The translations under genes were made by a program, and so were the position numbers. Below, one piece after another: positions 9,380-64,000 of a stretch of DNA of 64,000 bases. Each line of letters begins with the position of its first letter. Position 1 is the stretch's first letter. Origin of the DNA: an uncultured bacterium (GTDB taxonomy: Bacteria; Cyanobacteriota; Vampirovibrionia; Gastranaerophilales; Gastranaerophilaceae); assembly GCA_949284415.1 (NCBI GenBank), contig CASDVM010000027.1, forward strand, positions 28,016 to 92,015. Reading direction: 5' to 3'. The notes below the pieces were generated by a model. That model saw only the letters and a list, made by a program, of their open reading frames with translations. It had not been told where the DNA came from and did no database searches.

Positions 9380-9472
9380 ATGGGAAGTTTATTAAGAAAT
9401 GTAAATCGGGGGGGGGGGGCATTCTCGGCTGACAGGTGGCAAGAAGTCAGGAAGTCAGGTTGTTTACATTAA
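9380..9472 (+). other. Leader ORF of pilin locus A, containing a G12 tract at 9408-9419
   Basis: AGGAG at 9369-9373, ATG at 9380, sequence MGSLLRNVNRGGG, then the tract. As assembled it stops at 9470-9472. With 11 G it reads into the stop-free frame that continues as ORF 9489..10481. Confidence 0.7.
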
Positions 9473-9488
9473 TGTCATTGCGTATTTA

Positions 9489-10481
9489 TTGCGCAATCCG
9501 GAATTTTTCATAAAAAGGTCGCATACCATATGCGCGATGCCGGGTCTTAATATTAAATTCCTCGCCCTTTGGAAGAGAGTGTCCGAAGGACAGGGGATGG
9601 GCTTGTTACAAAGAAGGATGTCCTTGTTTAATGACTCAAAAGAGTCTCGTTATTACACAGAAAGTTCATGCAAAACTGATGTTGCGGGTGCAGCGGCTAC
9701 GATTCCGAAACGAACTTATTCACTTATTAACCTATTCTCTTATTCTCTTCATAAAAAAGCAGCGTTTACGCTTGCAGAGGTCTTGATAACATTAGGAATT
9801 ATCGGAATCGTAGCCGCTATGACTATGCCGTCTCTTATTTCGAATTACAGACATAAAGTTTTAGAAACCCAATTTAAAAAGGCATATTCTGTTATCAGCC
9901 GGCTTGGTTCAATGATTATTTCAGAGTATGGTGATTGTTCGTATAGTCAAACTGAAGATATAAAGGAGTTTATTTTATCTAATCTTATTAAGGCGGATCA
10001 GACGAGTTCTTCGGATAAATATACTAACTTTTTTACGTATACCAAAAACAAGGCATCTGTCGGAATTCATTTTAACTGTTTGGATAATGTTTCTTGGACA
10101 AACAGCAAAAGCGGTTCAACACCGGATGGAATGCAATTCGCTCTCTGTTCTCATAACAGCGGTATTGGAACAATAGTTGCAGTTGATACTAACGGAGCGG
10201 GAAAAAGACCTAATGCATTCGGTCATGATATATTTTTCTTTCATTTTAATACGGGAAATTGCAGGCTTGAACCTATAACATATACTATCCGCAATTGTAC
10301 TGATGAAGAAAAAGACAGTTGCACACAATCTTCAGATACATATAACGGATGGAAGAGTGTTAATGGAGAATGTTCTCATACAAGTACATCTTCTACAAAC
10401 GGATTTGCCTGTGCACGGTATGCTATTGCAAATGTATGTCCTGACAGTTCGGGCAAAGGATATTTTGATTGTCTGCCTTAG
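9489..10481 (+). CDS. Type IV pilin-like / pseudopilin-like protein A. The true start is probably the leader ATG at 9380, in frame only when the tract is in phase
   Basis: KKAAFTLAEVLITLGIIGIVAAMTMPSLISNYR prepilin-type motif at residue 91 of the tracked ORF; VDTNGAGKRPNAFGHDIFFFHF family motif. The frame is open back to 9405. Confidence 0.8.
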   Translation: MRNPEFFIKRSHTICAMPGLNIKFLALWKRVSEGQGMGLLQRRMSLFNDSKESRYYTESSCKTDVAGAAATIPKRTYSLINLFSYSLHKKAAFTLAEVLITLGIIGIVAAMTMPSLISNYRHKVLETQFKKAYSVISRLGSMIISEYGDCSYSQTEDIKEFILSNLIKADQTSSSDKYTNFFTYTKNKASVGIHFNCLDNVSWTNSKSGSTPDGMQFALCSHNSGIGTIVAVDTNGAGKRPNAFGHDIFFFHFNTGNCRLEPITYTIRNCTDEEKDSCTQSSDTYNGWKSVNGECSHTSTSSTNGFACARYAIANVCPDSSGKGYFDCLP

Positions 10482-11237: not shown

Positions 11238-11285
11238 ATGAAAGATTTATTAAGAATTGTGAACGCGGGGGGGGGCGCTTCTTAG
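11238..11285 (+). other. Leader ORF of pilin locus B, containing a G9 tract at 11267-11275
   Basis: AGGAG at 11227-11231, ATG at 11238, sequence MKDLLRIVNAGGG. It stops at 11283-11285 as assembled. With 8 or 11 G it is in frame with ORF 11371..12219, and there is no stop between them. Confidence 0.7.
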
Positions 11286-11370
11286 CTCCTTATCAATAAT
11301 TTTAACTTGTCAAAATAAAAAAAACTGTTATAATAGTGATAAAATACATCACAATTATAAGGGATTTAAC

Positions 11371-12219
11371 TTGGAAAAATTAAAAGGTTTTACCCGTGCG
11401 GAAGGTGCGCATGTAAGCGACTTTGACAAGATACGCAGAGCAGCATTTACTTTGGCAGAAGTTTTGATAACATTAGGAATTGTAGGAGTTGTAGCAGCCA
11501 TGACAATGCCCGCGCTGATAAATAATTACAGGGCAAAAGTCTTAGAAATAAGTTTTAAAAAAGCTGATTCCATTATTACCCAAGCAATGCAAACAACAAT
11601 GTATGAATACGGGTTTACAAGGTATTATGATTTCGGGATATTTTGTAGCGGTGAGTATTGTAAAGATACAAAACCTGAAGTTTACTTACCTCTGAACAAT
11701 TTATGGAAAAAGCAATTCAGCGGTTTAGAAGAGACAGGTTGGCAGCAAATAAAATCTAAAAATTATCCGTTTGCTAAATTTTGGGGAGAAAAAGCTAATT
11801 TTAATTACGTATTTATGGTTGCCGGTGCCAAGAATAATACTTCTCTAAAGGCATATTTTATGAAAGATGGAATGTTAATCAGTGAAATTATTTTTGAGGC
11901 AAATAATGCTTCGGAATTGGGTGATAAAAGTCATAGGTATACAATATTTCCATTTATATTTGTAGATACAAACGGACCGGCAAAAGGTCCGAATCGTTTA
12001 GGTTATGATATGTTCTATTGGGTTAAAATGACATGTTATTTTACATACTGCGATCCTTTATCTGATAATGTAAGAGGTTGTTATTTATGGGCAAGAAAAG
12101 ATCAAAATCCTTATGATAATTCGGTCAGTTATTGGAAATCATTGTATAAATCAAAGAGTTACTGGGAAAAATTAAAATCTATAGGCGGTGGTAATGGAGA
12201 ACCCAAAGAATTATATTAA
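11371..12219 (+). CDS. Type IV pilin-like / pseudopilin-like protein B
   Basis: RRAAFTLAEVLITLGIVGVVAAMTMPALINNYR and VDTNGPAKGPNRLGYDMFYW. A degenerate first motif MEKLKGFTRAE lies at the tracked TTG start. Confidence 0.8.
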   Translation: MEKLKGFTRAEGAHVSDFDKIRRAAFTLAEVLITLGIVGVVAAMTMPALINNYRAKVLEISFKKADSIITQAMQTTMYEYGFTRYYDFGIFCSGEYCKDTKPEVYLPLNNLWKKQFSGLEETGWQQIKSKNYPFAKFWGEKANFNYVFMVAGAKNNTSLKAYFMKDGMLISEIIFEANNASELGDKSHRYTIFPFIFVDTNGPAKGPNRLGYDMFYWVKMTCYFTYCDPLSDNVRGCYLWARKDQNPYDNSVSYWKSLYKSKSYWEKLKSIGGGNGEPKELY

Positions 12220-21202: not shown

Positions 21203-22027
21203 TTGAAGAGTTATATGAAAAACGCTTTTACGTTAACCGGAGGTGCTACACACGTAGTTATGCCGAGCAATTCTTGTCAATTCTTAACAGGGCTTTGTAC
21301 CGGTGGTACCACGCACATAACCTGCTTTGATAATATTAGTAAAGCCGCCTTCACTCTGGCAGAGGTTTTGATAACTTTAGGGATTATCGGTATTGTTGCA
21401 GCATTGACAATGCCTGCTTTAATCGGTAATTATCGCAAAAAACAGACAGTTGTGCAGTTGAAGAAGATATATTCTGCAATGTCGCAGTCTGTGCAAATGT
21501 CTCAGAGTAATTATGGAGATATTGCTGACTGGGATTGGACACTTAGTACGGAAGATTTTTTTTAAAGATATTTGAGTTATAATTTTTCTGTTCTTAAGTA
21601 TTGCGGAAAAAAAGAAGGCTGTTGGAACAAAGATGGCGGGCTAATGCCTAATGGAAATAAATACAGTGATCCTCCGACATTTGCATCTGGCAGTGATAGA
21701 GCCAAAATCAGCTTATCTGATGGTGCGTTTATTGCTATGCGTAAACAGGACAATAACCATGTGCATATCAATGTGGATATTAACGGTTTTAAACGTCCTA
21801 ATACTTATGGAGTGGATATTTTTGTATTTACATTAACGGCTGTCCCTTTTTCAGACAGTTCTCATAAGATTGCTTCACCGGGGCTGTTTATGTTTGGACA
21901 TGGATTGAATGAAAATGAAATAAAATCAAATTATAATGGCTGTTCCAAAAATTCGAACGGTCTTATGTGCGGTGAAAAAATATTAATGGACGGCTGGGAT
22001 ATTAAAGACGATTATCCGTGGAAATAA
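21203..22027 (+). pseudogene. Type IV pilin-like protein D, interrupted by one in-frame TAA at 21566-21568
   Basis: Tracked ORFs 21203..21565 and 21572..22027 are in the same frame. The N-part has KAAFTLAEVLITLGIIGIVAALTMPALIGNYR; the C-part has DINGFKRPNTYGVDIFVFTL and DGWDIKDDYPW. The stop aligns inside a conserved block of the paralogs. Confidence 0.7.
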
Positions 22028-22581: not shown

Positions 22582-22632
22582 ATGAAAGATTTATTAAGAT
22601 TTGTAAATCGGGGGGGGGGCATTCTCGGCTGA
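22582..22632 (+). other. Leader ORF of pilin locus C, containing a G10 tract at 22610-22619
   Basis: AGGAG at 22570-22574, ATG at 22582, sequence MKDLLRFVNRGGG. It stops at 22630-22632 as assembled. With 11 G it is in frame with ORF 22689..23615. Confidence 0.7.
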
Positions 22633-22688
22633 CAGGTGGCAAGAAGTCAGGAAGTCAGGTTGTTTACATTAATGTCATTGCGTATTTA

Positions 22689-23615
22689 TTGCGCAATCCG
22701 GAATTTTTCATAAAAAGGTCGCACACCATATGCGCGATGCCGGGTCTTAATATTAAATTCCTCGCTCATTGGAAGAGGGGGGCCGAAGGACATGAGAGGG
22801 GCTTTTTACAAAGAAGGATGTCCTTGTTTAACGACTCAAAAGAGTCTCGTTATTACACAGAAAGTTCATGCAAAACTCATATTGCGGGTGCCGCGGCTAC
22901 ACTGCCGAAACGAACTTATTCACCTGTTCACTTATTTTCTTATTCACTTCACAAAAAAGCAGCGTTTACGCTTGCAGAGGTCTTGATAACATTAGGAATT
23001 ATCGGAATCGTAGCCGCTATGACTATGCCGTCATTGATAACTAATTACCGAAAAAAACAAACTGCTGTCAGACTTGAAAGGTTTTATTCTATAATGAGTC
23101 AGGCTGTTCTCAGATGGCAGCAGGACGAAGGAATTGTGCCTGAGGATATCAGGTTTCCTGCGGAGACCGTAAAAAATGGTGTAAAAACGCAGGAGTGGTT
23201 TTCTTCTACAATCGGTAAATATATAACAACTACATATCAAACAACTAACGGGCAAAATTTTTCTGCTGCATTTAATGACGGTTCCGGATTTGATTCTTAT
23301 ATAGGCAATGAAAACCAGTTTTTTATATTTTACTGCGTAGATTATAAGTATTGTATAAATGCTAACGGAGACGGAAATTATAACGGTAAAACAGGGTTCC
23401 TGTTTGAGATAAACCGAGGCAAATTTCTAACATCTTCTCCATATTTTGATAACAAGACAAGAGAAGAAATCTTAGAATCGTGCAAATACGGAAACAGAGA
23501 TGACCCGTCTGTGAGTTCAAAAGGACGCCGTCATGCCTGTGCAAGACTTATTCAGATGGACGGCTGGGAAATAAGAAAAGACTACCCATGGGAACAAACA
23601 ATGTTAGAAAATTAA
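22689..23615 (+). CDS. Type IV pilin-like / pseudopilin-like protein C
   Basis: KKAAFTLAEVLITLGIIGIVAAMTMPSLITNYRKKQ and a C-terminal DGWEIRKDYPW. The leader is near-identical to locus A. Confidence 0.8.
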   Translation: MRNPEFFIKRSHTICAMPGLNIKFLAHWKRGAEGHERGFLQRRMSLFNDSKESRYYTESSCKTHIAGAAATLPKRTYSPVHLFSYSLHKKAAFTLAEVLITLGIIGIVAAMTMPSLITNYRKKQTAVRLERFYSIMSQAVLRWQQDEGIVPEDIRFPAETVKNGVKTQEWFSSTIGKYITTTYQTTNGQNFSAAFNDGSGFDSYIGNENQFFIFYCVDYKYCINANGDGNYNGKTGFLFEINRGKFLTSSPYFDNKTREEILESCKYGNRDDPSVSSKGRRHACARLIQMDGWEIRKDYPWEQTMLEN

Positions 23616-27883: not shown

Positions 27884-30460
27884 TTAATTAAACAGGTTTA
27901 ACTGTGGAACTTCAACAGATGGAACATCAACGGATTTTTTGCGTGTTGAAAGGTTATTGGAATAATCTTTCTGCATCCTTGTCATTAATTCCTGCGAGCG
28001 CTTAATTACAGCCTGCGGCAACCCTGCCATTTTTGCTACCTGAATTCCGTAGCTTTTGCTTGCACCGCCCTGGACTATTTTACGTAAAAATTCAATCTCT
28101 CCGTTTTCTTCCGTTATTGTAATTCTGTAATTTTTTATCTGCGGATAAGTTTTTGTCATTACGTTCAACTCATGATAATGTGTTGCAAAAATACATCTCG
28201 CTTTTATTTTTGTCGCAATGTATTCTGCAACTGACCATGCTATTGCAACACCATCGTAAGTGCTTGTACCTCTGCCGATTTCATCAAGAAGTATAAAACT
28301 CCTTTCTGTTGCGGAATTTAAAATACATGCTGTTTCAATCATCTCAACCATAAAAGTTGACTGTCCGAGTGTCAAATCATCAGATGCTCCGACACGTGTA
28401 AAGATTTTGTCAATAATACCGATTTTTGCGTAATCTGCAGGAACCCATGAACCTATCTGGGCTAAAATTGCAATCAGTGCATTCTGACGCATATAGGTTG
28501 ATTTACCTGCCATATTCGGGCCTGTCAAAATCATAAACTGTGTTGAATCAAGCGAATTACATTTTAATTCCAGGTCATTCGGAACATATTCCCCGAGCGG
28601 AAGTATTTTTTCAAGCACAGGGTGGCGCCCGTTTTTGACAATAAAATCATCTGATTCATCAATAACCGGTTTGCAGTAATTATTCTCGACAGCGGTTTGC
28701 GCAAGTCCTGTATATACATCGCATTTTGCTATGCATTCGGCAATTTCTCTGATTTTTGAGACGAATTCTTTTGAATATTCCCTGAAATCACAGAATAATT
28801 TATATTCCAATTCCGTTGATTTGAATTTTGCGGAAAGAACATCATCTTCATGTTTTTTTAACTCTTCTGTTATAAATCTTTCGCCCGTTGTCAGGGTTTG
28901 CTTTCTTACATAACCTTCGGGAATTTGATTAAGATAAGAATTTGAAATTTCGATAAAGTATCCGAATACTTTGTTAAATCCTATTTTTAAAGATTTAATG
29001 CCTGTTCTTTCTTTTTCCTTTTCTTCAAAGTTTTTCAGCCAATTTTCTCCTCCGGTCAAAAGTTCACGGAAATAATCAAGTTCACCTGATACGCCTTCTT
29101 TTAAAATTCCGCCTTCTTTTATAACCTGTGGAGCGTTTTCCGCAATTGTTCTGTCAATTAATGATGCATATTCAGATATTTCATCTCTATATTGGTTAAT
29201 CTCTGCCAGCGGGTTATATTCAAGCTTTTCTGTTGCATCTAAAAGCTGCGGAAGAATCATCAAAGATGATTTCAAACTTAGGAAGTCTCTTGGGTTTGCT
29301 GAACTGTTAGACATTCTTGTTGCAAGTCTCTGTATATCATATATTTTTTCTAAAAGATTTGATATAGTGATGCGTTCGTCTGACTTTTCAACAAGTTCGG
29401 TTATGCAATTCTGACGGTTTAGAATATCTTCAACATGTTTTAGAGGCTGGCAGACCCAGTTTTTCAAAAGCCTTGCGCCCATATTTGTTTTTGTTTTGTC
29501 AACAGACCAGAGTAATGAACCGAATTTGTTTTTATCGCGCAGAGTTTCCGTAAGCTCAAGATTTTTTCTCGTACTTCCGTCCAAAATCATGTATTCGGAA
29601 AGTTCATAAGGCTCAATTCTTTCGAATTTGGGAACATTGTCTTTTAATGTTTCCCAGATATAAGCAAGCAAGGCGCCTGCTGCTCTGAACCCTGTTTTAT
29701 ATCTGTCATAGCCGAAAGATTCAAGACTGGTCGCCTGAAAAACTGCCTTAAGGTTGTTTTCTGCAAAATTAGTTTCAAAAACTGATGACGGAATTTTTGA
29801 ACAATTGTAATTTTTGGTAATTTCTTCCGGCAAATCAATCTTTTCATCAGGTACAATCTGAAACGGCATAATTTTTTGTTTCACAGAAGGACCTACGACT
29901 TCTGCAGGTGCAATTCTTGTCAATTCTGCAAGAATAAGCTCATAAGGAGCCTGTGTAACTTTAAACTCCCCTGTTGAAATATCGGCGTATGAAAATCCCC
30001 ATATTCCGCTTTTTTCGTCTTTAAACAGTGCACAAATATAATTGTTGGAGTTCTGCTGTAGAAAGTCGCTTTCTGTCAGAGTACCTGATGTTACAATTCT
30101 TGTAACCCCTCTTTTTACAAGCCCTTTTGCAAACTTTGGATCTTCAAGCTGGTCGCATATTATAACTTTATAATTTTTTTGGACGAGTTTTTCAAGATAA
30201 TTATTTACGGCCTTTGCAGGAATTCCCGCAAGCGGAATTCTTCCGAATTTCCCCTGTTCTCTGCCGGTCAGCGTAAGTTCAAGTTCTTTAGACATCGTAA
30301 CGGCATCTTCAAAAAATGTTTCGTAAAAATCCCCGAGTCTGTATAGCAGAATTTTATCCGGATTCTGGTGTTTAATTTTTAAATACTCCTGCATTGCAGG
30401 TGTCAGCTCCTCGACTTTAATATCAGCTGTATTAATAAGATTGATTTCATTATTTTTCAT
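27884..30460 (-). CDS. mutS: DNA mismatch repair protein MutS
   Basis: TPAMQEYL, TGPNMAGKST, LLDEIGRGTSTYDG and ATHYHEL. The ATG at 30460 avoids overlap with the divergent gene at 30498. Confidence 0.95.
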   Translation of the reverse strand: MKNNEINLINTADIKVEELTPAMQEYLKIKHQNPDKILLYRLGDFYETFFEDAVTMSKELELTLTGREQGKFGRIPLAGIPAKAVNNYLEKLVQKNYKVIICDQLEDPKFAKGLVKRGVTRIVTSGTLTESDFLQQNSNNYICALFKDEKSGIWGFSYADISTGEFKVTQAPYELILAELTRIAPAEVVGPSVKQKIMPFQIVPDEKIDLPEEITKNYNCSKIPSSVFETNFAENNLKAVFQATSLESFGYDRYKTGFRAAGALLAYIWETLKDNVPKFERIEPYELSEYMILDGSTRKNLELTETLRDKNKFGSLLWSVDKTKTNMGARLLKNWVCQPLKHVEDILNRQNCITELVEKSDERITISNLLEKIYDIQRLATRMSNSSANPRDFLSLKSSLMILPQLLDATEKLEYNPLAEINQYRDEISEYASLIDRTIAENAPQVIKEGGILKEGVSGELDYFRELLTGGENWLKNFEEKEKERTGIKSLKIGFNKVFGYFIEISNSYLNQIPEGYVRKQTLTTGERFITEELKKHEDDVLSAKFKSTELEYKLFCDFREYSKEFVSKIREIAECIAKCDVYTGLAQTAVENNYCKPVIDESDDFIVKNGRHPVLEKILPLGEYVPNDLELKCNSLDSTQFMILTGPNMAGKSTYMRQNALIAILAQIGSWVPADYAKIGIIDKIFTRVGASDDLTLGQSTFMVEMIETACILNSATERSFILLDEIGRGTSTYDGVAIAWSVAEYIATKIKARCIFATHYHELNVMTKTYPQIKNYRITITEENGEIEFLRKIVQGGASKSYGIQVAKMAGLPQAVIKRSQELMTRMQKDYSNNLSTRKKSVDVPSVEVPQLNLFN

Positions 30461-30497
30461 AGTTATAATAATATTATAACATGACAAGGATTTCAAC

Positions 30498-31097
30498 ATG
30501 GGATGTTTAAAAAATATTTTACGCGCAATAATTCTTACCCTTGCAGCAGTCGGTTTTTTGGCGCTCGGCGACAAAGATTTGATAGTTTCTCTTGTCGGGA
30601 ATTATTTTAATCCGCCAAAAGATGTTGTAATGGAACGTGCGCAAAAGGTCGGTGATTTTTCAAAGATTAATGATGAATTTGAAATTGAAAAAGCCGCGGG
30701 AATAATGGGCTATAATGCGGTTGTTGCAGAACACAGAGCATCGGGGCAGAAAATGCTTGTAGTGGATTCCGGTGATAAAAAAATATTAACTGCAGATGAT
30801 ATAAAATCAGATAATGTTGAAGAAAAATTGCATAAGGCAATAAGTAAAATCAAATATCAGGCAATTTCTGTTGATGACTTAAAAGTTACAAAGCATGGTA
30901 CTATGAATTCTTACGGCAAAGAGGTTCCTTATGTGAGATTTGAAGCACGTGTTAAAAAACTCCCGATAGGCGATATCGGCGGTATAATATCTGTTGCGAG
31001 CACTAAAGACGGCGAGGAACGGATTTTGATATCCGCAAATGAAAAAAATAAATATTCACAATTGATTTCTGATGAATTTTTCAGGAAAATAAAATAG
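30498..31097 (+). CDS. Hypothetical exported protein
   Basis: N-terminal hydrophobic signal-like segment ILTLAAVGFLALG. No motif recognised. Confidence 0.5.
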   Translation: MGCLKNILRAIILTLAAVGFLALGDKDLIVSLVGNYFNPPKDVVMERAQKVGDFSKINDEFEIEKAAGIMGYNAVVAEHRASGQKMLVVDSGDKKILTADDIKSDNVEEKLHKAISKIKYQAISVDDLKVTKHGTMNSYGKEVPYVRFEARVKKLPIGDIGGIISVASTKDGEERILISANEKNKYSQLISDEFFRKIK

Positions 31098-37195: not shown

Positions 37196-40100
37196 TTATT
37201 CTTCGTCTTCATTACCGAGCTGGAAGTCAGGAGAACCGAACATACCTTCAATTTCTTCCAAAATCGCAGACGGTTTTCTTGCCTGATTTCTTTGAGCTAC
37301 CGCACGTTTTCTTTCTTCACGTTCTTTCTCTTCGTTCGCATTTGAAAGATGGTGGAAGCCTGTGCCTGCAGGTATCAAACGACCGATGATAACGTTTTCT
37401 TTCAAACCTCTCAACATGTCTTTTTTACCTTCAACGGCTGCTTCTGTCAGGATTCTTGTTGTTTCCTGGAATGAAGCTGCTGAAATGAAACTTTCTGTGT
37501 TCAAAGAAGCTTTTGTGATACCTAATAACATATATTCACAAGTTGCAGGTTGACCGCCTTTTTCTTCAACTTCTTTGTTTTCTTTTTCGAATGTCTGCAT
37601 TTCAATTAATTCACCCGGCAGTAATGTTGTATCACCTGCATCGACAACTTTAACTTTTTTAGTCATCTGTCTTACGATGATTTCAACGTGTTTATCGGCA
37701 ATTTCTACACCTTGAGAACGATATACTCTCTGTACTTCATCCACAAGATATTGCTGTGCGGCTTCCGGTCCGCAGAGTCTTATAACATCGTGCGGGTTCA
37801 AAGGTCCGCTTGTCAAAGGCTGACCTTTTTTGATTTTCTGTTTATTCTGAACAACGATGTTTGCATCAATTGCGTATTTGATCTCGGTTCTGCCATTGTC
37901 AGTAACAAGATAGAGTCTCGGCAAATCTTCATCCGTTTCAATTTCCGCAATACCGTCTTCTTCTGCCAGAATAGCACAATCTTTAGGTTTGCGGCCTTCA
38001 AGAAGTTCTTCAACCCTCGGAAGACCCTGAACGATATCACCTGTTTTTTGTCTTTCAAATACAAGTGTTGCAATGTTATCACCGCGGAGAACAAGTGCGC
38101 CTGCTTCAACCTGTAACATAGTACCCGGGCTGATTAAGTATGGACGACCGTTTCTGATTGTTATTTCACCTTTATTAACAGATGTTACCATACCTGAAAC
38201 GGTTGATTTTTCTCCGCTGTCCGCAATGATTGAATCAAGTTTTACAAAGTCGCCTTTTTTAACGTTTGCTTTGCCTTTTACAGACAATGTTGTTTCATAA
38301 GTTTCGCTTGTTAAAAGAAGTCTTCTTGCATCTTCTTTTTCGGATTTTATTGAAGCAACGCCGTCATTGATTGCCAGTACCTGAGTTTTAGCAACAGGTG
38401 TTTTCGGGTCAATAGTCTGGCCGTCTTTTACAAGAAGTTCTGTTTGAAGTGATGACATTGTTTTTGCATTGCCTTCAAATTCACGGCGGACGATTAAGTT
38501 TTCAAGAACAACTATTCTTAAATTATCTTTATCATCAAGTTCTACCATACCTTTAAGGTGTGATAAGTAGCCCTGCATCTGCAGAACAAGACTTGTTCTT
38601 GTAATTGTAGAACCATCGAGATTTCTAACTCTTGCACCGTCTTTGTATTGCAATTGTGTTACAGGTACAATGTCAATCAAGCTGTCAGATGTGTTGAATT
38701 TGATAGATACATTTTTTTGTTCAACATTTAATACCTGAACAGGTCTGATAAGTATCTGTATAGGCTGATTTGATATGTTATCTTCATCAAGCGAAAGACT
38801 TGAGTCAAGTTCTTCATCAAGATCATCGATATCCAGATCATCCATTGAAGAATCCATAATCGTAACGATAGAAGTTTCTTTTACTTTAATACCGTCTGCA
38901 ATTACGGTGCCTTTTTTTACAACTTCGCCTTCGTCAACCTTTAATTCCGAAACACTTGAAAGTGTATGAATTTCACCAGGGCGGATTGTTATTTCATGGA
39001 TAACATCGTTGTATTCTTTGAATTCAACAATACCGTCAATGTGGCAGTAAACATCTTTTACAACTTCGGTGCCTGCTGTAACGTGAGTTCCGTTTTCAAC
39101 CATTTTTAAAGAAGAATCTTTATTAATCTGGTGAATTTCTTCCGGAATAAATACAACAGAACCCGGTTTTGTAATAATCTGGTTTTCGTCTACTTCAACA
39201 TCAACATATCTGATTTCGCCTGATGAAGTTACTGCACATTCATCATCAATAAGTTCTGCGATAATCATACCGTTTTCAACCGTTGTATCAACAGGTGCTT
39301 TTACGATATATTTTTCACCGGTTTTGTTAACTGTCCACAACTGTTCTTTTTTAGTTTGTTCAAATGTCGCATTTTCAGGCATCAATGAAGCAATTACTAT
39401 TGTCAATTCTTTACCTTGAACAATTTTTTTGATATTTTTGCCTTCAAATTTAACATCTTCAATAACTAAATCTTCACCGAAACGGACTTCACCGCCGTGT
39501 TCAGAGATTGTTAAAGTTTCTGCGAGTTTTTCGCCTTCTTTAATTTTCTGACCGTCTTTTACAAGAACTTTAGATCCGCCGGGGAGGTTATAAACATCAC
39601 CGCCAAGAACCCAGATAATACCTTGTTTGTTGGTAGTTCTTGAGATGTTGCCCTGTCTGTCTTTCTTTTCATCAGCTACAAAATCTTCATATAACACTTC
39701 ACCGGAAAGATCTGATGTAATATCTTTTGTGGCTTTTTCTGTCAGACGTGAGCCTGAGCCTTGAGCTGACGGTTCAAACTGGGCAAGTTTAAAGCCTTTT
39801 TTAACCTGCATTCCGTTTGTAAAGAAGATTGTAGAGCCTGCCGGAATATGGTATTTTTCAGTTCTTTTGGCGCCTTTAATTTCAATGTCGGTTTCGTAAT
39901 TAGAGATATTAACAACATCGCCATGACGTGTTCTTAATTCTCTTGTTTTTACATTAGAAATTACTTCACCGTCTTGTTTTGCAATTACTTCTTTGATTGC
40001 ATCTTTAACGCCTACCGCACCGCCAGTGTGGAATGTTCTCATTGTAAGCTGTGTACCGGGTTCACCGATTGACTGCGCTGCAATAATACCGATTGCTTCC

Positions 40101-41056
40101 CCGATATCAACGAGTTTCTGGGTCGTCATTGCCCAGCCGTAGCATTTCTGGCAGATTCCGTATTCAAGACCGCAGGTTAAACCTGAACGAACTTTCAATT
40201 CCTGAAGATTCAGATGTTTAACTTTTTGAATATCATCTCTGTTCATTGTTGTTCCTGCTTTTACAAGAACTGTACCATCCGTATCAACGATATCTTCTGC
40301 AATTGTTCTGCCAAGTAACCTGTCAATCAGAGGAACAATAACATTATCACCGTCAGTAATAGGTTTCATGTTAATTGATTTTGTAGTATGGCAGTCATCG
40401 GCACGGATAATGACATCCTGAGCAACGTCTACCAGTCGTCTTGTCAAATAACCTGAGTCAGCTGTTTTCAACGCCGTATCTACAAGCCCTTTTCTTGCGC
40501 CGTATGATGAAATGATGTATTCCGTAACGGATAAGCCTTCTTTAAAGTTTGATTTAATCGGCAAGTCGATGATTTGTCCCTGCGCATCTGCCATCAAACC
40601 TCTCATTCCCACAAGCTGAGATACCTGTGATAAGTTACCTCTGGCACCTGAGAATGCCATCATATATACAGGGTTTAATTTGTCAAAGTTTTCAACTACC
40701 TGAGATGTTAATTTAGCTGTTGTTTCAGACCAGGTGTCGATAACTTTTGTATATCTTTCTACTTCGGTGATTTCACCTTTAAGATATCTGTTAGTTGATT
40801 TTTCGATTTCTTTTTCGGCTTCTTGAAGCAATTCTTTCTTTGCTTCCGGAACCTGCAAGTCTGCAATAGAAATTGTTGTTCCGGATTTCGTAGCATACTT
40901 ATAGCCGAGGTTTTTCAGGCTGTTAGCCAATTCTGCGGTTTTAGCCCCGCCAAACTCCAGATACATTTGTGAAAGCAAATTGTTTAATCCTTTTTTATCC
41001 ATTTGCTTGTTAATGAAATCTACAGTTTTTTTACCATGTGTGTATGTTGTTTCCAT
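37196..41056 (-). CDS. rpoC2: RNA polymerase beta-prime subunit, C-terminal part (cyanobacterial-type split)
   Basis: Starts after the NADFDGD-containing part and carries the trigger-loop and C-terminal beta-prime blocks (GEAIGIIAAQSIGEPGTQLTMRTFHTGG) with a large lineage-type insertion. Confidence 0.95.
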   Translation of the reverse strand: METTYTHGKKTVDFINKQMDKKGLNNLLSQMYLEFGGAKTAELANSLKNLGYKYATKSGTTISIADLQVPEAKKELLQEAEKEIEKSTNRYLKGEITEVERYTKVIDTWSETTAKLTSQVVENFDKLNPVYMMAFSGARGNLSQVSQLVGMRGLMADAQGQIIDLPIKSNFKEGLSVTEYIISSYGARKGLVDTALKTADSGYLTRRLVDVAQDVIIRADDCHTTKSINMKPITDGDNVIVPLIDRLLGRTIAEDIVDTDGTVLVKAGTTMNRDDIQKVKHLNLQELKVRSGLTCGLEYGICQKCYGWAMTTQKLVDIGEAIGIIAAQSIGEPGTQLTMRTFHTGGAVGVKDAIKEVIAKQDGEVISNVKTRELRTRHGDVVNISNYETDIEIKGAKRTEKYHIPAGSTIFFTNGMQVKKGFKLAQFEPSAQGSGSRLTEKATKDITSDLSGEVLYEDFVADEKKDRQGNISRTTNKQGIIWVLGGDVYNLPGGSKVLVKDGQKIKEGEKLAETLTISEHGGEVRFGEDLVIEDVKFEGKNIKKIVQGKELTIVIASLMPENATFEQTKKEQLWTVNKTGEKYIVKAPVDTTVENGMIIAELIDDECAVTSSGEIRYVDVEVDENQIITKPGSVVFIPEEIHQINKDSSLKMVENGTHVTAGTEVVKDVYCHIDGIVEFKEYNDVIHEITIRPGEIHTLSSVSELKVDEGEVVKKGTVIADGIKVKETSIVTIMDSSMDDLDIDDLDEELDSSLSLDEDNISNQPIQILIRPVQVLNVEQKNVSIKFNTSDSLIDIVPVTQLQYKDGARVRNLDGSTITRTSLVLQMQGYLSHLKGMVELDDKDNLRIVVLENLIVRREFEGNAKTMSSLQTELLVKDGQTIDPKTPVAKTQVLAINDGVASIKSEKEDARRLLLTSETYETTLSVKGKANVKKGDFVKLDSIIADSGEKSTVSGMVTSVNKGEITIRNGRPYLISPGTMLQVEAGALVLRGDNIATLVFERQKTGDIVQGLPRVEELLEGRKPKDCAILAEEDGIAEIETDEDLPRLYLVTDNGRTEIKYAIDANIVVQNKQKIKKGQPLTSGPLNPHDVIRLCGPEAAQQYLVDEVQRVYRSQGVEIADKHVEIIVRQMTKKVKVVDAGDTTLLPGELIEMQTFEKENKEVEEKGGQPATCEYMLLGITKASLNTESFISAASFQETTRILTEAAVEGKKDMLRGLKENVIIGRLIPAGTGFHHLSNANEEKEREERKRAVAQRNQARKPSAILEEIEGMFGSPDFQLGNEDEE

Positions 41057-41161
41057 TTATATCTATCCTTTTTTTAACTTGTCAATGCACTCGGGTGGTC
41101 TTCATAACTTGTTTCAAGATTTTGAGACTTTTCCCTCGCATCTGTTTGTTTTATCGATTTC

Positions 41162-42871
41162 CTACGCAAGAGCATTTCTTACAGCTTCGTTGAAGATAAT
41201 TCTTCCTGCTGTTGTCTCAATTCTTTCACCGTGTTCGTCTCTTACGACAATTTTGTCGTGAAGATCGATTACGCCGACTTCAAGAGCTGAAATTGCATCC
41301 TGGAAGTTGTAGAAATATCCTTTAGGTTCCATTTCAGGATTTTTAAGTATTGTCAGGTAATACATACCCAATACCATGTCCTGTGTCGGAGTGATAATAG
41401 GTTTACCTGTTGCAGGAGCTAAGATGTTGTTAGTTGCTAACATTAACATTCTTGCTTCAGTCTGAGCCTCAATTGATAAAGGTACGTGAACAGCCATCTG
41501 GTCGCCGTCAAAGTCTGCGTTGAATGCCGTACATACAAGCGGATGAAGCTGGATTGCACGTCCTTCTACCAGTTTAGGCTCAAATGCCTGAATACCCAGT
41601 CTGTGAAGAGTCGGGGCACGGTTTAGCAATACGGGGTGTCCATCGATTACTTCTTCTAATATATCCCAGACAACAGCTTCCGAGCGTTCAATTTTCTTTT
41701 TAGCTGATTTTATGTTTTGTACATATCCTCTTTCAATCAATTTATTAACAACAAACGGTTTAAATAATTCGATTGCCATTTCTTTCGGTAAACCGCACTG
41801 GTTCAATTTTAATTGAGGACCTACAACGATTACTGAACGACCTGAGTAGTCAACACGTTTTCCTAATAAGTTTTGACGGAAACGTCCCTGTTTACCTTCG
41901 ATAATGTTAGATAAGGATTTCAATGCTCTGTTGTTTGGTCCGACAACTGTTCTTCCGCGTCTGCCGTTATCAATCAGGGCATCAACCGCTTCCTGCAACA
42001 TACGTTTTTCGTTACGTACAATGATTTCGGGGGCACCCATTTCCAAAAGTCTTTGTAAACGGTTATTTCTGTTGATTACGCGTCTGTATAAGTCGTTTAA
42101 ATCTGATGTTGCAAAACGTCCGCCGTCCAATTGAACCATCGGTCTTAAATCCGGAGGAGTTACAGGCAATACGTCCATAATCATCCATGTCGGATCCGTT
42201 TCTGATGAAATCAATGAATCAAGCAATCTTAAACGTTTGATAAGCTTGCTTTTCTTTTGTACGGAATTAACCGAACCTGCAAGTTCCGATCTTATTTCTT
42301 CTGCAAGTTCTTTTGTATTAACTTCCGAAAGAAGTTCTTTTATGGCTTCGGCACCGATTCCGACTTTTAATTCAGAATCTTCATGTTCTGCCATATAATC
42401 TTCATATTCTTCTTCGGACAACAATTGTAATTTTTTGAATTCGCTTTCGCCCGGATCAAGAACCACGTAGTTGTTGAAATAGATTACCTGTTCAAGATCT
42501 TTTAAAGTCATATCAAGAAGCAAGCCAAGATAAGAAGGAATACCTTTCAAAAACCAGATATGAGAAACGGGAGCTGCAAGTTTAATATGTCCCATTCTCT
42601 GTCGTCTTACCTTACTATCCGTAACTTCAACGCCGCAGCGTTCGCAGATAATACCTTTGTGTCTTACTCTTTTATATTTACCGCAATAGCATTCCCAGTC
42701 TTTAGAAGGTCCAAAAATTCTTTCGCAGAACAGACCGTCTCTTTCCGGTTTTAATGTACGGTAATTAATTGTTTCCGGTTTAGTAACTTCGCCGTAAGAC
42801 CATTTAAGTATTCTTTCCGGTGAAGCGATACTAATTCGTATATAGTCAAAATAATCTATGCTTGTTGACAT
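41162..42871 (-). CDS. rpoC1: RNA polymerase gamma subunit (N-terminal part of beta-prime)
   Basis: Zinc-binding [23 protein letters not shown] and catalytic [12 protein letters not shown]. Ends where rpoC2 begins. Confidence 0.95.
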
Positions 42872-50873: not shown

Positions 50874-51671
50874 TTAAAAACTAATTCTTCTGGGGTAGTT
50901 TTTCGGGATTTTCCATCCGTTGCGCTGGATTATTGCTGTACAATATGCTCCTCCACTTTCATTGTTTGTTCCGCTATTTGGGTTACACCCTATTTGGGTA
51001 TCATTGTATAATGTATCTTCATCCCCATCCCAATTGTATAGATATGGTTCCATTCCTTTCTTATACAAGTATTTCCAGAAAGGTGCATCACTAATGGGAT
51101 AGAATTCAAAAATAAATCTGCAAGATCCTATGGAGTTTTCTTTTTTTATACATTTTTCAGGATTTTTAGGTATAAAATATATATCACGGTTTTCATGCTG
51201 TGCAAAGTAAAAAGCGCTCCCGTCAGCTAAAAAGTAAAGAATAATTTTATTTCCGTCAGCATCTTTAGCTTCTTTTTTATGAGTAATTTTCATGTACGGC
51301 GCAAGGTATTCTTGAAAAGACTCGTCATTTTTGTCAGCCTGATTAACTTTATTCCCCTCATCATCTTCTATATCGTTGTTGAAATAGCTCCAGCTTTCAA
51401 CCTCACCGTTATCGACAATTGACTGTAAAATAGCCTGATTCATAACAGAGTAGAATTTTTTCAGTCTTGTTTCAGCCACGGAGTGTGTGTAATTTTGTAT
51501 TAAAGCCGGCATTGTCATAGCAGCGACAATCCCTATAATGCCTAAGGTTATTAAAACTTCGGCCAATGTAAACGCGACTCGTTTTTTAAGTGAAGTGTGA
51601 AAAGTAAAGTGTGAAGTACATTTCCCTCTCCCCTTGCGGGAGAGGGGGAACGTAGCCGTTCCATCCAACAC
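50874..51671 (-). CDS. Type IV pilin-like / pseudopilin-like protein F
   Basis: KKRVAFTLAEVLITLGIIGIVAAMTMPALIQNY and C-terminal NGWKIPKNYP. The frame stays open upstream to 51806, through the C tract. Confidence 0.8.
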   Translation of the reverse strand: MLDGTATFPLSRKGRGKCTSHFTFHTSLKKRVAFTLAEVLITLGIIGIVAAMTMPALIQNYTHSVAETRLKKFYSVMNQAILQSIVDNGEVESWSYFNNDIEDDEGNKVNQADKNDESFQEYLAPYMKITHKKEAKDADGNKIILYFLADGSAFYFAQHENRDIYFIPKNPEKCIKKENSIGSCRFIFEFYPISDAPFWKYLYKKGMEPYLYNWDGDEDTLYNDTQIGCNPNSGTNNESGGAYCTAIIQRNGWKIPKNYPRRISF

Positions 51672-51763
51672 CTTAGTCTTGCATAAAACTTTTACGATAC
51701 TTCCTACTGCCCTATTGCCATAGTATTTTACTATCTTCTTAAATACTAAATCACAATCCCTTG

Positions 51764-51814
51764 CTATACAATACTTCTCGGGGGGGGGGCGATTCTCAGC
51801 TCTTCTCTATTCAT
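51764..51814 (-). other. Leader ORF of pilin locus F, containing a C10 tract (coding sense) at 51780-51789
   Basis: AGGAGG at 51823-51828 (minus strand), ATG at 51814, sequence MNREELRIAPPP. It stops at 51764-51766 as assembled. ATG to the pilin GTG is 143 nt, so one extra C (11) restores the frame. Confidence 0.7.
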
Positions 51815-51850
51815 AATTTTTGCCTCCTAAAATTTAAAAACCATATTTTT

Positions 51851-51879
51851 ATTATTTCCGATTTTTCTATATTTGTCAA
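51851..51879 (-). promoter_or_regulatory. Sigma70-like promoter of pilin locus F
   Basis: On the minus strand: TTGACA (51879-51874), 17-nt spacer, AATAAT (51856-51851). Confidence 0.5.
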
Positions 51880-51883
51880 TATG

Positions 51884-51920
51884 AAAAAGCGGAATCTCCT
51901 GCAAGGAGATTCCGCTTTTT
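51884..51920. terminator. Bidirectional rho-independent terminator after thrS
   Basis: AAAAA-GCGGAATCTCC-TGCAA-GGAGATTCCGC-TTTTT. Confidence 0.85.
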
Positions 51921-63921: not shown

Positions 63922-63972
63922 ATGAAAAGATCAGATTATTCAAGAGTTCGGGGGGGGGGCACTCTCAGTTAG
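63922..63972 (+). other. Leader ORF of a fifth phase-variable locus (E), containing a G10 tract at 63950-63959. The downstream gene lies beyond the window
   Basis: AGGAG at 63908-63912, ATG at 63922, sequence MKRSDYSRVRGGG, stop at 63970-63972. The alternative frame HSQLAEGKKSGSQ matches the in-phase frame of loci A and C. Confidence 0.6.
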
Positions 63973-64000
63973 CTGAGGGCAAGAAGTCAGGAAGTCAAGT

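What the first reader, a model, noticed from the sequence alone, without database searches (positions are those of the whole stretch)
51671..51879. Locus F: the same switch logic, but the tract is poly-C in coding sense, and the tract plus flank looks inverted relative to the other loci
**Seen.** On the minus strand: TTGACA-17-AATAAT, AGGAGG, ATG at 51814, sequence MNREELRIA, then 10 C and a stop at 51764.
- ATG to the pilin GTG (51671) is 143 nt, so 11 C restores the frame. The product would be ...APPPEKYCIARDCDLVFKKIVKYYGNRAVGSIVKVLCKTKVLDGTATFPLSRKGRG...RVAFTLAEV.
- Read on the plus strand, the tract context TCTC-G10-CGATTCTCAGCTC resembles the sense-strand context of the other loci (AATC-Gn-CATTCTCGGCTG and GTTC-G10-CACTCTCAGTTAGCTG), although gene F is on the other strand.

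**Inference.** The tract module may have been acquired or inverted as a unit. The ON length of 11 is nevertheless preserved, which argues that selection acts on the switch itself.
Basis: partly seen in the sequence, partly recalled or inferred. Interest (0 to 1): 0.65.

Follow-up and report, generated by a model that had tools for sequence, protein, structure and literature searches.

The report
Phase-variable pilin gene, poly-C switch
Locus F is a pilin-like gene of an uncultured gut bacterium (Gastranaerophilales) that a run of ten C's just after its start codon keeps out of frame; one more C would turn it on, and dozens of sister genes use the same switch inside an unusually long, probably discarded, leader peptide.

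Summary
On the minus strand: TTGACA-17-AATAAT, AGGAGG, ATG 51814, nine codons, C10 (51780-51789), stop at 51766-51764. Only C8, C11 or C14 join the ATG to a 313-aa ORF with a prepilin motif and a DUF6613 domain.

It is one of five such loci in the window and of about 44 among 91 pilin genes in 80 Gastranaerophilales loci. Spacers are open in the pilin frame in 42 of 44 loci; the other two frames close after a median of 3 codons. At a neighbouring-gene counterpart in another species, identical flanks carry G9, G10 and G11 (ON) in different samples, so length varies. ON alleles are rare (4 of 42; 12 expected).

The poly-C-in-sense form is an old leader class. Four true ortholog assemblies (thrS-pilin-M16) carry the same module, same orientation, C10; a fifth has C11 with a replaced 5' flank. 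The inverted-flank resemblance is real but short (12-15 nt, up to 40 nt against locus B; p about 0.001-0.01) and limited to this subclass. No flanking inverted repeats and no orientation polymorphism were found, so this is not a reversible inversion.

Best reading: slipped-strand translational phase variation inside an 81-aa leader presumed to be cleaved off. No ON allele or length change within one population was seen for the poly-C class.

The parts
51884..51920 (-). Terminator-like hairpin of the upstream thrS gene (17-bp perfect arms, 3-nt gap, then T run). It isolates locus F transcriptionally.
   Evidence: inverted repeat I1; sequence. The consensus terminator scan did not list it.
51851..51879 (-). 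Promoter-like site TTGACA-17-AATAAT
   Evidence: 11/12, best in region; conserved in orthologs L101-L103 and L105
51823..51828 (-). Shine-Dalgarno AGGAGG, 8 nt before the ATG
   Evidence: identical in orthologs
51790..51814 (-). Start codon plus pre-tract codons (MNREELRIA). The 19 nt next to the tract are identical in the ortholog. This is the segment whose reverse complement resembles G-type 3' flanks.
51780..51789 (-). Poly-C tract (C10 in coding sense, G10 on the + strand), flanked G-C10-G. OFF as assembled; ON at 8, 11 or 14.
51764..51766 (-). TAG that ends the 16-codon OFF-frame peptide. The other OFF frame ends 20-21 codons from the ATG.
   Evidence: family-wide median of 3 codons from tract to first OFF-frame stop
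51573..51779 (-). Spacer: 69 codons open only in the pilin frame. This is the putative extended prepilin leader. Its first ~110 nt are homologous to the ortholog leader; its 3' part is built from different modules.
   Evidence: P of being open by chance 0.02; substitutions 6/6/6 by codon position
51624..51646 (-). GC-rich hairpin module (CCCTCTCCC / GGGAGAGGG) translated in frame as PLSRKGRG. Copies occur in other leaders in both orientations.
50874..51572 (-). Mature pilin-like protein (232 aa): FTLAEVLITLGIIGIVAAMTMP N-terminal helix plus a DUF6613 domain. Ala is at -1 (51573-51575).
   Evidence: DUF6613 E=7e-27; N_methyl 21.3 bits against a cutoff of 21.2; AF2 pLDDT 83, helix then beta-sheet; third-position substitution excess
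9380..10481 (+). Locus A: the same switch with G12 (9408-9419), OFF, ON at 8/11/14; 128-aa leader
11238..12219 (+). Locus B: the same switch with G9 (11267-11275), OFF; 70-aa leader. Its post-tract flank is the best inverted match to F.
22582..23615 (+). Locus C: the same switch with G10 (22610-22619), OFF; leader nearly identical to A
63922..64000 (+). Locus E: start of the same switch with G10 (63950-63959), OFF. The gene runs off the window.

Best explanation
Locus F is a contingency locus. It encodes a type-IV-pilin-like protein (prepilin N-terminal domain plus DUF6613) of a gut Gastranaerophilales (Melainabacteria) bacterium.

Shown by sequence and comparison:
- Translation can only reach the pilin from ATG 51814.
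- The C-run at codons 9-12 sets the frame. C10, as assembled, terminates after 16 codons (OFF). C11, C8 or C14 gives a 313-aa precursor (ON).
- The architecture is shared by about half of the family's genes.
- Tract length differs between samples at a related locus.

Inferred:
- Length changes arise by slipped-strand mispairing during replication, giving heritable and reversible ON/OFF switching.
- The 81 residues before Phe+1 are an over-long class III (prepilin) leader. It stays in the cytoplasm and is cut off by prepilin peptidase, so its sequence is free to host the repeat and in-frame hairpin modules.
- With many such loci per genome, most are OFF in the bulk population at any time.

Poly-C rather than poly-G in the sense strand marks an old, conserved leader class, not a flipped copy that arose in this genome.
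For: - Anatomy and frame arithmetic.
- Five tracts of 9-12 in the window and no other G/C run longer than 6.
- Family-wide: 44 of 91 pilin genes carry a G/C tract of at least 8 placed 24-35 nt after an RBS and ATG. The spacer is open in the pilin frame in 42/44; the other frames are open in 4/84, with a median of 3 codons to the first OFF-frame stop.
- Length polymorphism with identical flanks at the pilin upstream of M16 in another species: G9 (L094), G10 (L095) and G11 = ON in three separate samples (L097-L099).
- F orthologs: C10 in four assemblies, C11 in one.
- ON alleles are depleted: 4/42 against 12.1 +/- 2.3 expected, P=0.0009. This fits one-of-many expression.
- Switch module conserved (93%), against a leader that drifts neutrally (substitutions 6/6/6 by codon position, 4 synonymous to 11 non-synonymous codons) and a mature part under purifying selection (25/15/70; 56 to 33). 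Fisher p=0.02 and 0.011.
- Short-leader relatives (MKKAFTMAEV, MKNRKINAFTLAEV) fix the cleavage site before Phe and show that Ala at -1 is normal in this family.
- The prepilin leader stays cytoplasmic (PMC4471445).
- Gastranaerophilales encode pilB, pilC, pilD and pilT (PMC5877343). A T2SSE ATPase lies beside the pilin-M16 counterpart locus.
Against: - No ON allele was seen for the poly-C class. 14 of 16 instances are C10. The one C11 ortholog has a rearranged 5' flank and is still OFF.
- All the data are assembly consensus sequences. No read-level heterogeneity within one population was examined.
- Cleavage of an 81-aa leader with Ala at -1 is unprecedented for bacteria: reviewed leaders are 6-26 aa and end in Gly (PMC4471445). 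It is untested here.
- Foldseek found no solved pilin resembling the DUF6613 model (best E=0.27).
- The N_methyl Pfam score only just clears its cutoff (21.3 against 21.2).
- mutS is intact in the window, so slippage is not boosted by loss of mismatch repair.
Confidence: 0.72

Rival explanations
1. Expression is by polymerase or ribosome slippage rather than by heritable switching. The out-of-frame length is the selected, stable state, and RNA polymerase slippage (or ribosomal frameshifting) on the 10-11-nt run supplies a constant small fraction of in-frame product.
For: ON alleles are strongly depleted (4/42) and the modal length of 10 is one short of ON at most loci. The poly-C class is almost fixed at C10.
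Against: DNA-level G9, G10 and G11 alleles exist with identical flanks, including ON. The correction needed differs by locus: +1 in the 8/11/14 class at n=10, and -1 in the 7/10/13 class at n=11. That does not fit a directional programmed shift. From general knowledge, efficient transcriptional slippage is documented mainly for A/T runs.
Confidence: 0.12
2. The tract and short ORF are only an upstream leader (uORF). The pilin is translated independently from an internal start such as GTG 51671, so tract length does not gate expression.
For: Gene callers report the 265-aa GTG ORF and similar short forms in most assemblies. Locus B does have an internal TTGTCA-16-TATAAT plus an AAGGGA-TTG start.
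Against: The spacer is open in the pilin frame in 42/44 loci against 4/84 for the other frames. There is no spaced RBS before GTG 51671 and no internal promoter on the minus strand of F's spacer. In-frame indels of whole modules (48 nt in L100) show that the frame is maintained.
Confidence: 0.08
3. Invertible cassette: the tract plus flank flips by recombination, so the G-sense and C-sense forms interconvert.
For: Short inverted resemblance between F's 5' flank and G-type 3' flanks. Both classes are C-Gn-C on the G strand.
Against: No inverted repeats bracket 51770-51810. The window plus five ortholog assemblies all have the same orientation. Other poly-C loci lack the resemblance. None of the ten large window ORFs scanned is a recombinase.
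Confidence: 0.03
4. Decaying pseudogene or assembly error: the frame break is a dead gene or a miscounted homopolymer.
For: The gene is OFF in the window and in all five ortholog assemblies. Homopolymers are error-prone, and several contigs end at tracts.
Against: The mature part shows a purifying-selection pattern (25/15/70). Promoter, RBS, ATG and pre-tract are the best-conserved part of the locus. The same design is seen at about 44 loci in many species. G11 assembled without trouble in three samples.
Confidence: 0.05

Closest known systems
Neisseria pilC1/pilC2 phase variation (homopolymeric G/C tract inside the reading frame)
   Same: An ON/OFF frameshift switch by a G/C run of about 9 or more near the 5' end of a pilus-related gene. 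Modal tract lengths of 9-10 (PMC5953494) are like the mode of 10 seen here. From my own knowledge (Jonsson et al. 1991, not retrieved here), the pilC tract lies in the signal-peptide coding region.
   Different: PilC is a Sec-exported pilus-associated protein with one or two copies. Here the switched genes are the pilin-like subunits themselves, in dozens of paralogs, and the tract lies in a class III leader of 70-130 aa.
Neisseria opa gene family (CTCTT/CTTCT repeats in the leader-peptide coding region)
   Same: A multigene family of surface proteins in which each copy has its own translational repeat switch in the part of the precursor that is removed. Most copies are OFF at any time (repeat and copy numbers in PMC5953494; the rest from general knowledge).
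   Different: A pentanucleotide repeat rather than a homopolymer, outer-membrane proteins with a Sec signal peptide, and a different phylum.
Campylobacter jejuni poly-G phasome
   Same: Many independent poly-G/C tracts of about 8-11 in coding regions of surface-structure genes, read out as population-level ON/OFF mixtures (general knowledge, not checked here).
   Different: Campylobacter lacks MutS/MutL mismatch repair, whereas this window encodes an intact MutS. The Campylobacter targets are mostly glycosylation and capsule genes, not pilins.
Site-specific pilin or fimbrial inversion systems (E. coli fimS, Moraxella Piv)
   Different: Those systems need flanking inverted repeats and a recombinase and show both orientations in a population. 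None of these was found here.
Canonical class III (prepilin) signal peptides
   Same: Phe+1, Glu+5, about 21 hydrophobic residues, and basic residues just before the cleavage site.
   Different: The leader is 81 aa (70-128 in sister loci) against 6-26 aa, and Ala rather than the 'invariable' Gly is at -1 (PMC4471445).

Membership tests
Simple-sequence-repeat contingency locus (translational phase variation) | Homopolymeric G/C tract at or above the length treated as hypermutable (9 or more in PhasomeIt) | tested here: met
   C10 at 51780-51789; threshold from PMC5953494
Simple-sequence-repeat contingency locus (translational phase variation) | The tract lies inside the ORF, so a +/-1 change switches between a full-length product and early termination | tested here: met
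   313 aa at 8/11/14, 15-22 aa otherwise
Simple-sequence-repeat contingency locus (translational phase variation) | Tract length differs between strains or samples at the same locus while the flanks stay the same | tested here: inconclusive
   Met for the G-type pilin-M16 counterpart (G9, G10, G11). For F orthologs, C10 in four assemblies and C11 in one whose 5' flank is replaced.
Simple-sequence-repeat contingency locus (translational phase variation) | Reversible switching within a clonal population, with a matching change in expression | not testable with these tools
   No reads, cultures or expression data were available
Type IV pilin / class III signal peptide protein | N-terminal motif: Phe+1, Glu+5, about 21 hydrophobic residues | tested here: met
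   AFTLAEVLITLGIIGIVAAMTMP; Pfam N_methyl 21.3 bits against a cutoff of 21.2; TIGR02532 hits for loci A and B
Type IV pilin / class III signal peptide protein | Short hydrophilic leader (6-26 aa) ending in Gly-1 | tested here: not met
   81 aa before Phe+1, with Ala at -1. Short-leader relatives in the same family also use Ala or Gly at -1.
Type IV pilin / class III signal peptide protein | Pilin fold: long alpha-1 helix packed on an antiparallel beta-sheet | tested here: inconclusive
   The AF2 model has helix 36-88 followed by five strands, pLDDT 83. No significant Foldseek match to any PDB chain.
Type IV pilin / class III signal peptide protein | Prepilin peptidase and assembly ATPase encoded in the genome | not tested
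   Not found among the ten large window ORFs scanned. A T2SSE gene lies beside the related locus L094. pilB, pilC, pilD and pilT are reported for the order (PMC5877343).
Pfam DUF6613 | Match above the gathering threshold | tested here: met
   E=7e-27, 95.1 bits against a cutoff of 24.3, residues 105-310 of the ON form
Invertible DNA switch (inverton) | Inverted repeats flanking the invertible segment | tested here: not met
   no inverted-repeat pair brackets the tract module
Invertible DNA switch (inverton) | Both orientations found among assemblies of the same locus | tested here: not met
   The window plus L100-L103 and L105 all have poly-C in sense

The most novel reading that the evidence does not exclude
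Gastranaerophilales may have evolved a dedicated 'switch platform'. This would be a class III prepilin leader enlarged to 70-200 aa, whose sequence is selectively neutral and is built from in-frame, stop-free hairpin repeat modules. At its start sits a portable homopolymer cassette (C-Gn-C plus about 12-30 nt) that has been transplanted between paralogs in either orientation. The result would be dozens of independently switching pilin genes, of which each cell expresses only a few. In poly-C loci the ON state would also encode Pro-Pro-Pro at residues 10-12, adding an EF-P-dependent layer of control.
Probability: 0.3. Interest if true: 0.72.

Novelty: new variant of a known kind. Interest (0 to 1): 0.55.

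Why it matters
Melainabacteria are uncultured, non-photosynthetic relatives of Cyanobacteria that live in human and animal guts, and almost nothing is known about how they present their surface to the host or to phages. This would be a large family of pilin-like genes, each gated by its own homopolymer switch and mostly OFF in bulk populations. That implies bet-hedging or immune and phage evasion of the kind known from Neisseria and Campylobacter, in a commensal lineage where I found no paper describing it.

The apparent 70-130-aa prepilin leaders, several times the accepted 6-26 aa, would, if processed, widen what prepilin peptidases are thought to accept. There is also a practical consequence: gene callers systematically mis-start or truncate these genes, producing artefacts such as 'MHRGGGN…' and 'MPPPR…'.

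Tried and rejected
- **Known RNA:** an Rfam gathering scan of the window found only a tRNA. The leader as RNA folds no better than shuffles (z=-1.4), so a riboswitch or structured-leader reading was dropped.
- **F-specific metagenome scan:** the flanks with a variable gap gave 0 hits in metagenome contigs. The A/C-type pattern gave only 3 contigs, one of which duplicates L075.
- **P0007 (81% identical, 14 contigs):** fetched for strain-level tract data, but it is a tract-less paralog next to hisS.
- **'MPPPR…' and 'MHRGGGN…' proteins:** they looked like ON forms but are gene-caller TTG/GTG starts beside the tract. Relative to the RBS-ATG these loci are OFF.
- **Replication-strand explanation for G always lying on the + strand:** GC skew is uninformative, and L038 has two G-type genes on opposite strands.
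- **Fold assignment of DUF6613:** Foldseek against the PDB found nothing significant.
- **Class-wide inverted-flank test:** negative for five of the six poly-C loci tested.
- **Literature:** searches for Melainabacteria or Gastranaerophilales with phase variation, homopolymeric or pilin, and for DUF6613, found nothing on this system.

Full report
**1. What is in the sequence**

On the minus strand, downstream of the thrS terminator-like hairpin (51884-51920), lie these elements:
- TTGACA-17-AATAAT at 51879-51851, 11 of 12 matches and the best promoter-like site in the region.
- AGGAGG at 51828-51823.
- ATG at 51814.
- Codons for MNREELRIA, then ten C (51789-51780), then a TAG at 51766-51764.

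Varying the tract in silico gives a long ORF (313 aa) only at 8, 11 or 14 C. All other lengths stop after 15-22 codons.

The window is 36% GC. It contains five G/C runs of 9-12 and no other run longer than 6, so the tracts are not a composition effect.

**2. What the gene is**

The ON-form protein has a prokaryotic N-terminal methylation motif at residues 81-101, which only just clears the Pfam cutoff. It also has a strong DUF6613 domain (E=7e-27), and weak pilin or pseudopilin NCBIfam hits confined to the N-terminal helix.

An AlphaFold model of the 265-aa form is confident (pLDDT 83). It shows a disordered leader, a 53-residue N-terminal helix and a beta-sheet domain. Foldseek finds no significant PDB relative. 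'Pilin-like' therefore rests on the motif and the topology, not on a fold match.

Homologs are almost all from gut Gastranaerophilales/Melainabacteria MAGs. The window itself carries rpoB, a split rpoC1/rpoC2, mutS and thrS, so this is core chromosome of that lineage.

**3. The switch is a family trait**

In the window, loci A, B, C and E on the + strand have the same layout: promoter, RBS, ATG, about 9 codons, and G12, G9, G10 and G10 respectively. Loci A, B and C also have a spacer that is open only in the pilin frame, followed by K/R-x-A-A-FTLAEV. Locus E runs off the window before its spacer and pilin domain. All are OFF, and all would be ON at 8/11/14.

Across 80 loci from GTDB species representatives plus the window, 44 of 91 pilin genes have a tract of at least 8 within 1 kb upstream (36 G-in-sense, 8 C-in-sense). 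After adding strain-level contigs and removing duplicates:

| Measure | Result |
|---|---|
| Spacer open in the pilin frame | 42 of 44 |
| The two other frames open through to the pilin | 4 of 84 |
| Median distance from tract to first stop in OFF frames | 3 codons |
| Tract lengths (n: count) | 8:2, 9:4, 10:30, 11:13, 12:3, 13:1 |

F's 69-codon spacer would be open by chance with P about 0.02, and A's 115 codons with P about 0.0015. The design therefore requires translation to run from the upstream ATG through the tract into the pilin.

**4. Does tract length vary?**

Yes, in the family. One pilin in another species is 64% identical to F and, like F, sits directly upstream of the ~860-aa M16 peptidase gene. 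With identical flanks it carries G9 (L094), G10 (L095) and G11 (L097, L098 and L099, from three different samples). G11 is the in-frame state, which gene callers report as the 346-aa protein P0050.

For F itself I found the true orthologs, which share the Methyltransf_21-thrS-pilin-M16 gene order. Four assemblies (L101, L102, L103, L105) have the same module and C10. L100 has C11, but there the sequence 5' of the tract is replaced right at the tract, and a 48-nt module is missing in frame from the spacer.

Over all poly-C loci, 14 of 16 are C10 and two are C11; none is demonstrably ON. Direct evidence for switching at F is therefore thin; the family-level evidence is good.

**5. ON alleles are rare**

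Only 4 of 42 well-formed loci are in frame. Shuffling lengths among loci predicts 12.1 +/- 2.3 (P=0.0009; binomial against 1/3, 3.5e-4).

The mode shifts with the frame class: 10 where ON is 8/11/14, 11 where ON is 7/10/13, and 10 where ON is 6/9/12. This looks like a mutational equilibrium near 10-11 with the ON lengths removed. That is the expected pattern if each cell expresses few of many loci, or if expression is selected against in bulk. It argues against a systematic miscount and against a directional programmed frameshift.

**6. The leader**

Family members with ordinary short leaders (MKKAFTMAEV, MKNRKINAFTLAEV, MKHHINRNGFTLAEV) place the cleavage site before Phe and show Ala or Gly at -1.

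In tract-bearing loci, 70-128 residues precede Phe+1 (81 in F). Reviewed bacterial leaders are 6-26 aa and end in Gly (PMC4471445). The same review notes that the leader stays in the cytoplasm and is cut there, so length is not topologically forbidden.

F compared with its ortholog L101:

| Segment | Identity | Differences by codon position | Synonymous : non-synonymous codons |
|---|---|---|---|
| Promoter to tract | 93% (19 nt next to the tract identical) | – | – |
| First 96 nt of the spacer | 81% | 6/6/6 | 4 : 11 |
| Mature coding part | 84% | 25/15/70 | 56 : 33 |

Fisher tests give p=0.02 (third position against first and second) and p=0.011 (synonymous against non-synonymous). The leader's amino-acid sequence therefore seems unconstrained; only its frame is kept.

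Leaders are mosaics of short GC-rich hairpin modules that recur in other leaders in either orientation. F's CCCTCTCCC/GGGAGAGGG hairpin at 51624-51646 is one of them. Modules come and go in multiples of three (48 nt in L100, 177 nt between L092 and L093). Cleavage of such a precursor is inferred, not shown.

**7. The 'inverted module' idea**

- *The resemblance.* On the G strand both classes read C-Gn-C. The reverse complement of F's pre-tract codons (CGATTCTCAGCTCTTC) matches G-type post-tract flanks. Against the family z=3.7 and p=0.006; against locus B p=0.0008; against A/C p=0.011; against E it is not significant.
- *BLAST.* It finds the same inverted matches in other species (L030 24/25, L075 23/24, L028, L072) and a 40-nt inverted alignment to locus B. 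Ten of those bases are the tract, so the informative part is 12-15 nt, or about 30 nt for B.
- *Other poly-C loci.* The five others tested show nothing (z from -1.0 to 0.8).
- *No inversion machinery.* No inverted repeats bracket the tract, and orientation is identical in the window and in five ortholog assemblies.
- *An old class.* Poly-C leaders with a shared consensus (ATG…GAAGCT(TT)GAGA.TG-C10-G…TAGCAAGGGATT) occur at unrelated loci in at least six species.
- *Conclusion.* The more distant pilin-M16 counterpart is G-type. An ancient inversion or transplant of a small cassette is therefore possible. A recent or reversible flip is not supported, and leader replacement between paralogs is the simpler account of why this locus is C-type.

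**8. Comparison with known systems**

The mechanism is the classical homopolymer contingency switch. The closest parallels are Neisseria pilC, where a homopolymer sits inside the ORF and modal lengths are 9-10 (PMC5953494), and the opa family, where repeats lie in the removed leader of a multigene family.

What differs here:
- The lineage.
- The switched genes are the pilin-like subunits themselves, in many paralogs.
- The tract sits in an over-long class III leader that appears to be disposable.

No paper in the searchable library describes phase variation, homopolymers or DUF6613 in Melainabacteria.

**9. Verdict**

The switch interpretation is well supported at family level and plausible but not directly shown for F. 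The inversion inference is only weakly supported, as an ancient event. This is a new variant of a known kind and is moderately interesting.

Noticed in passing
window 11305-11371 (+): Locus B has an internal TTGTCA-16-TATAAT, then AAGGGA and a TTG start (MEKLKGFTRAEGAHV…RRAAFTLAEV), downstream of its G9 tract. This pilin may be expressed independently of the switch.
   Followed up: partly
window ~21216-21370 (+, locus D); also locus B, and P0007, P0009, P0010, P0063: A 'pseudo-pilin start' (K-x-AFTLAEGATHVA, whose DNA holds the palindrome GCTACGCACGTAGC) precedes the real AFTLAEV by about 12-35 residues. It looks like a hairpin element inserted into the first pilin codons, with duplication of the target.
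   Followed up: no
window 51624-51646; L022, L023 (same orientation); L037, L061 (inverted): The GC-rich hairpin in F's spacer is a repeat module found in other pilin leaders in both orientations, always read through in frame (PLSRKGRG and similar).
   Followed up: partly
window 9408, 11267, 22610, 51780, 63950: All five tracts are poly-G on the + strand, although gene F is on the minus strand. GC skew gave no explanation, and L038 has G-type genes on both strands, so this may be coincidence.
   Followed up: partly
L032, L052, L077, L093 (contig ends): Four contigs begin or end exactly at a G/C tract (G13, G10, C10, C11). This fits assembly breaks caused by length heterogeneity or poor reads at the homopolymer.
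   Followed up: no
L100 2718-2817 compared with L101 2670-2769: In one ortholog assembly the whole promoter/RBS/ATG segment is replaced by unrelated sequence, with the breakpoint exactly at the C tract (C11 there). thrS is 616 aa rather than 601 aa.
   Followed up: partly
window 51588-51615: A tandem 14-nt direct repeat (AAGTGAAGTGTGAA twice, on the + strand) lies just upstream of the prepilin motif. It encodes the HFTFHTS stretch of the leader.
   Followed up: no
window 37196-42871 (-), 27884-30574 (-): rpoC is split into rpoC1 (569 aa) and rpoC2 (1286 aa, with an M23-peptidase-like insert hit), as in Cyanobacteria. An intact mutS is present, so the hypermutable tracts coexist with mismatch repair.
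   Followed up: partly
P0027, P0028, P0044 (MHRGGGN…); P0063, P0071 (MPPPR…): Public protein predictions for this family often start at a TTG or GTG next to the tract, or at internal codons. The databases therefore hold many artefactual N-termini for these genes.
   Followed up: yes
window 51780-51789 (ON form, residues 10-12): In-frame poly-C alleles encode Pro-Pro-Pro right after the start. From general knowledge this is a ribosome-stalling motif that needs EF-P. Poly-G alleles encode Gly-Gly-Gly instead.
   Followed up: no
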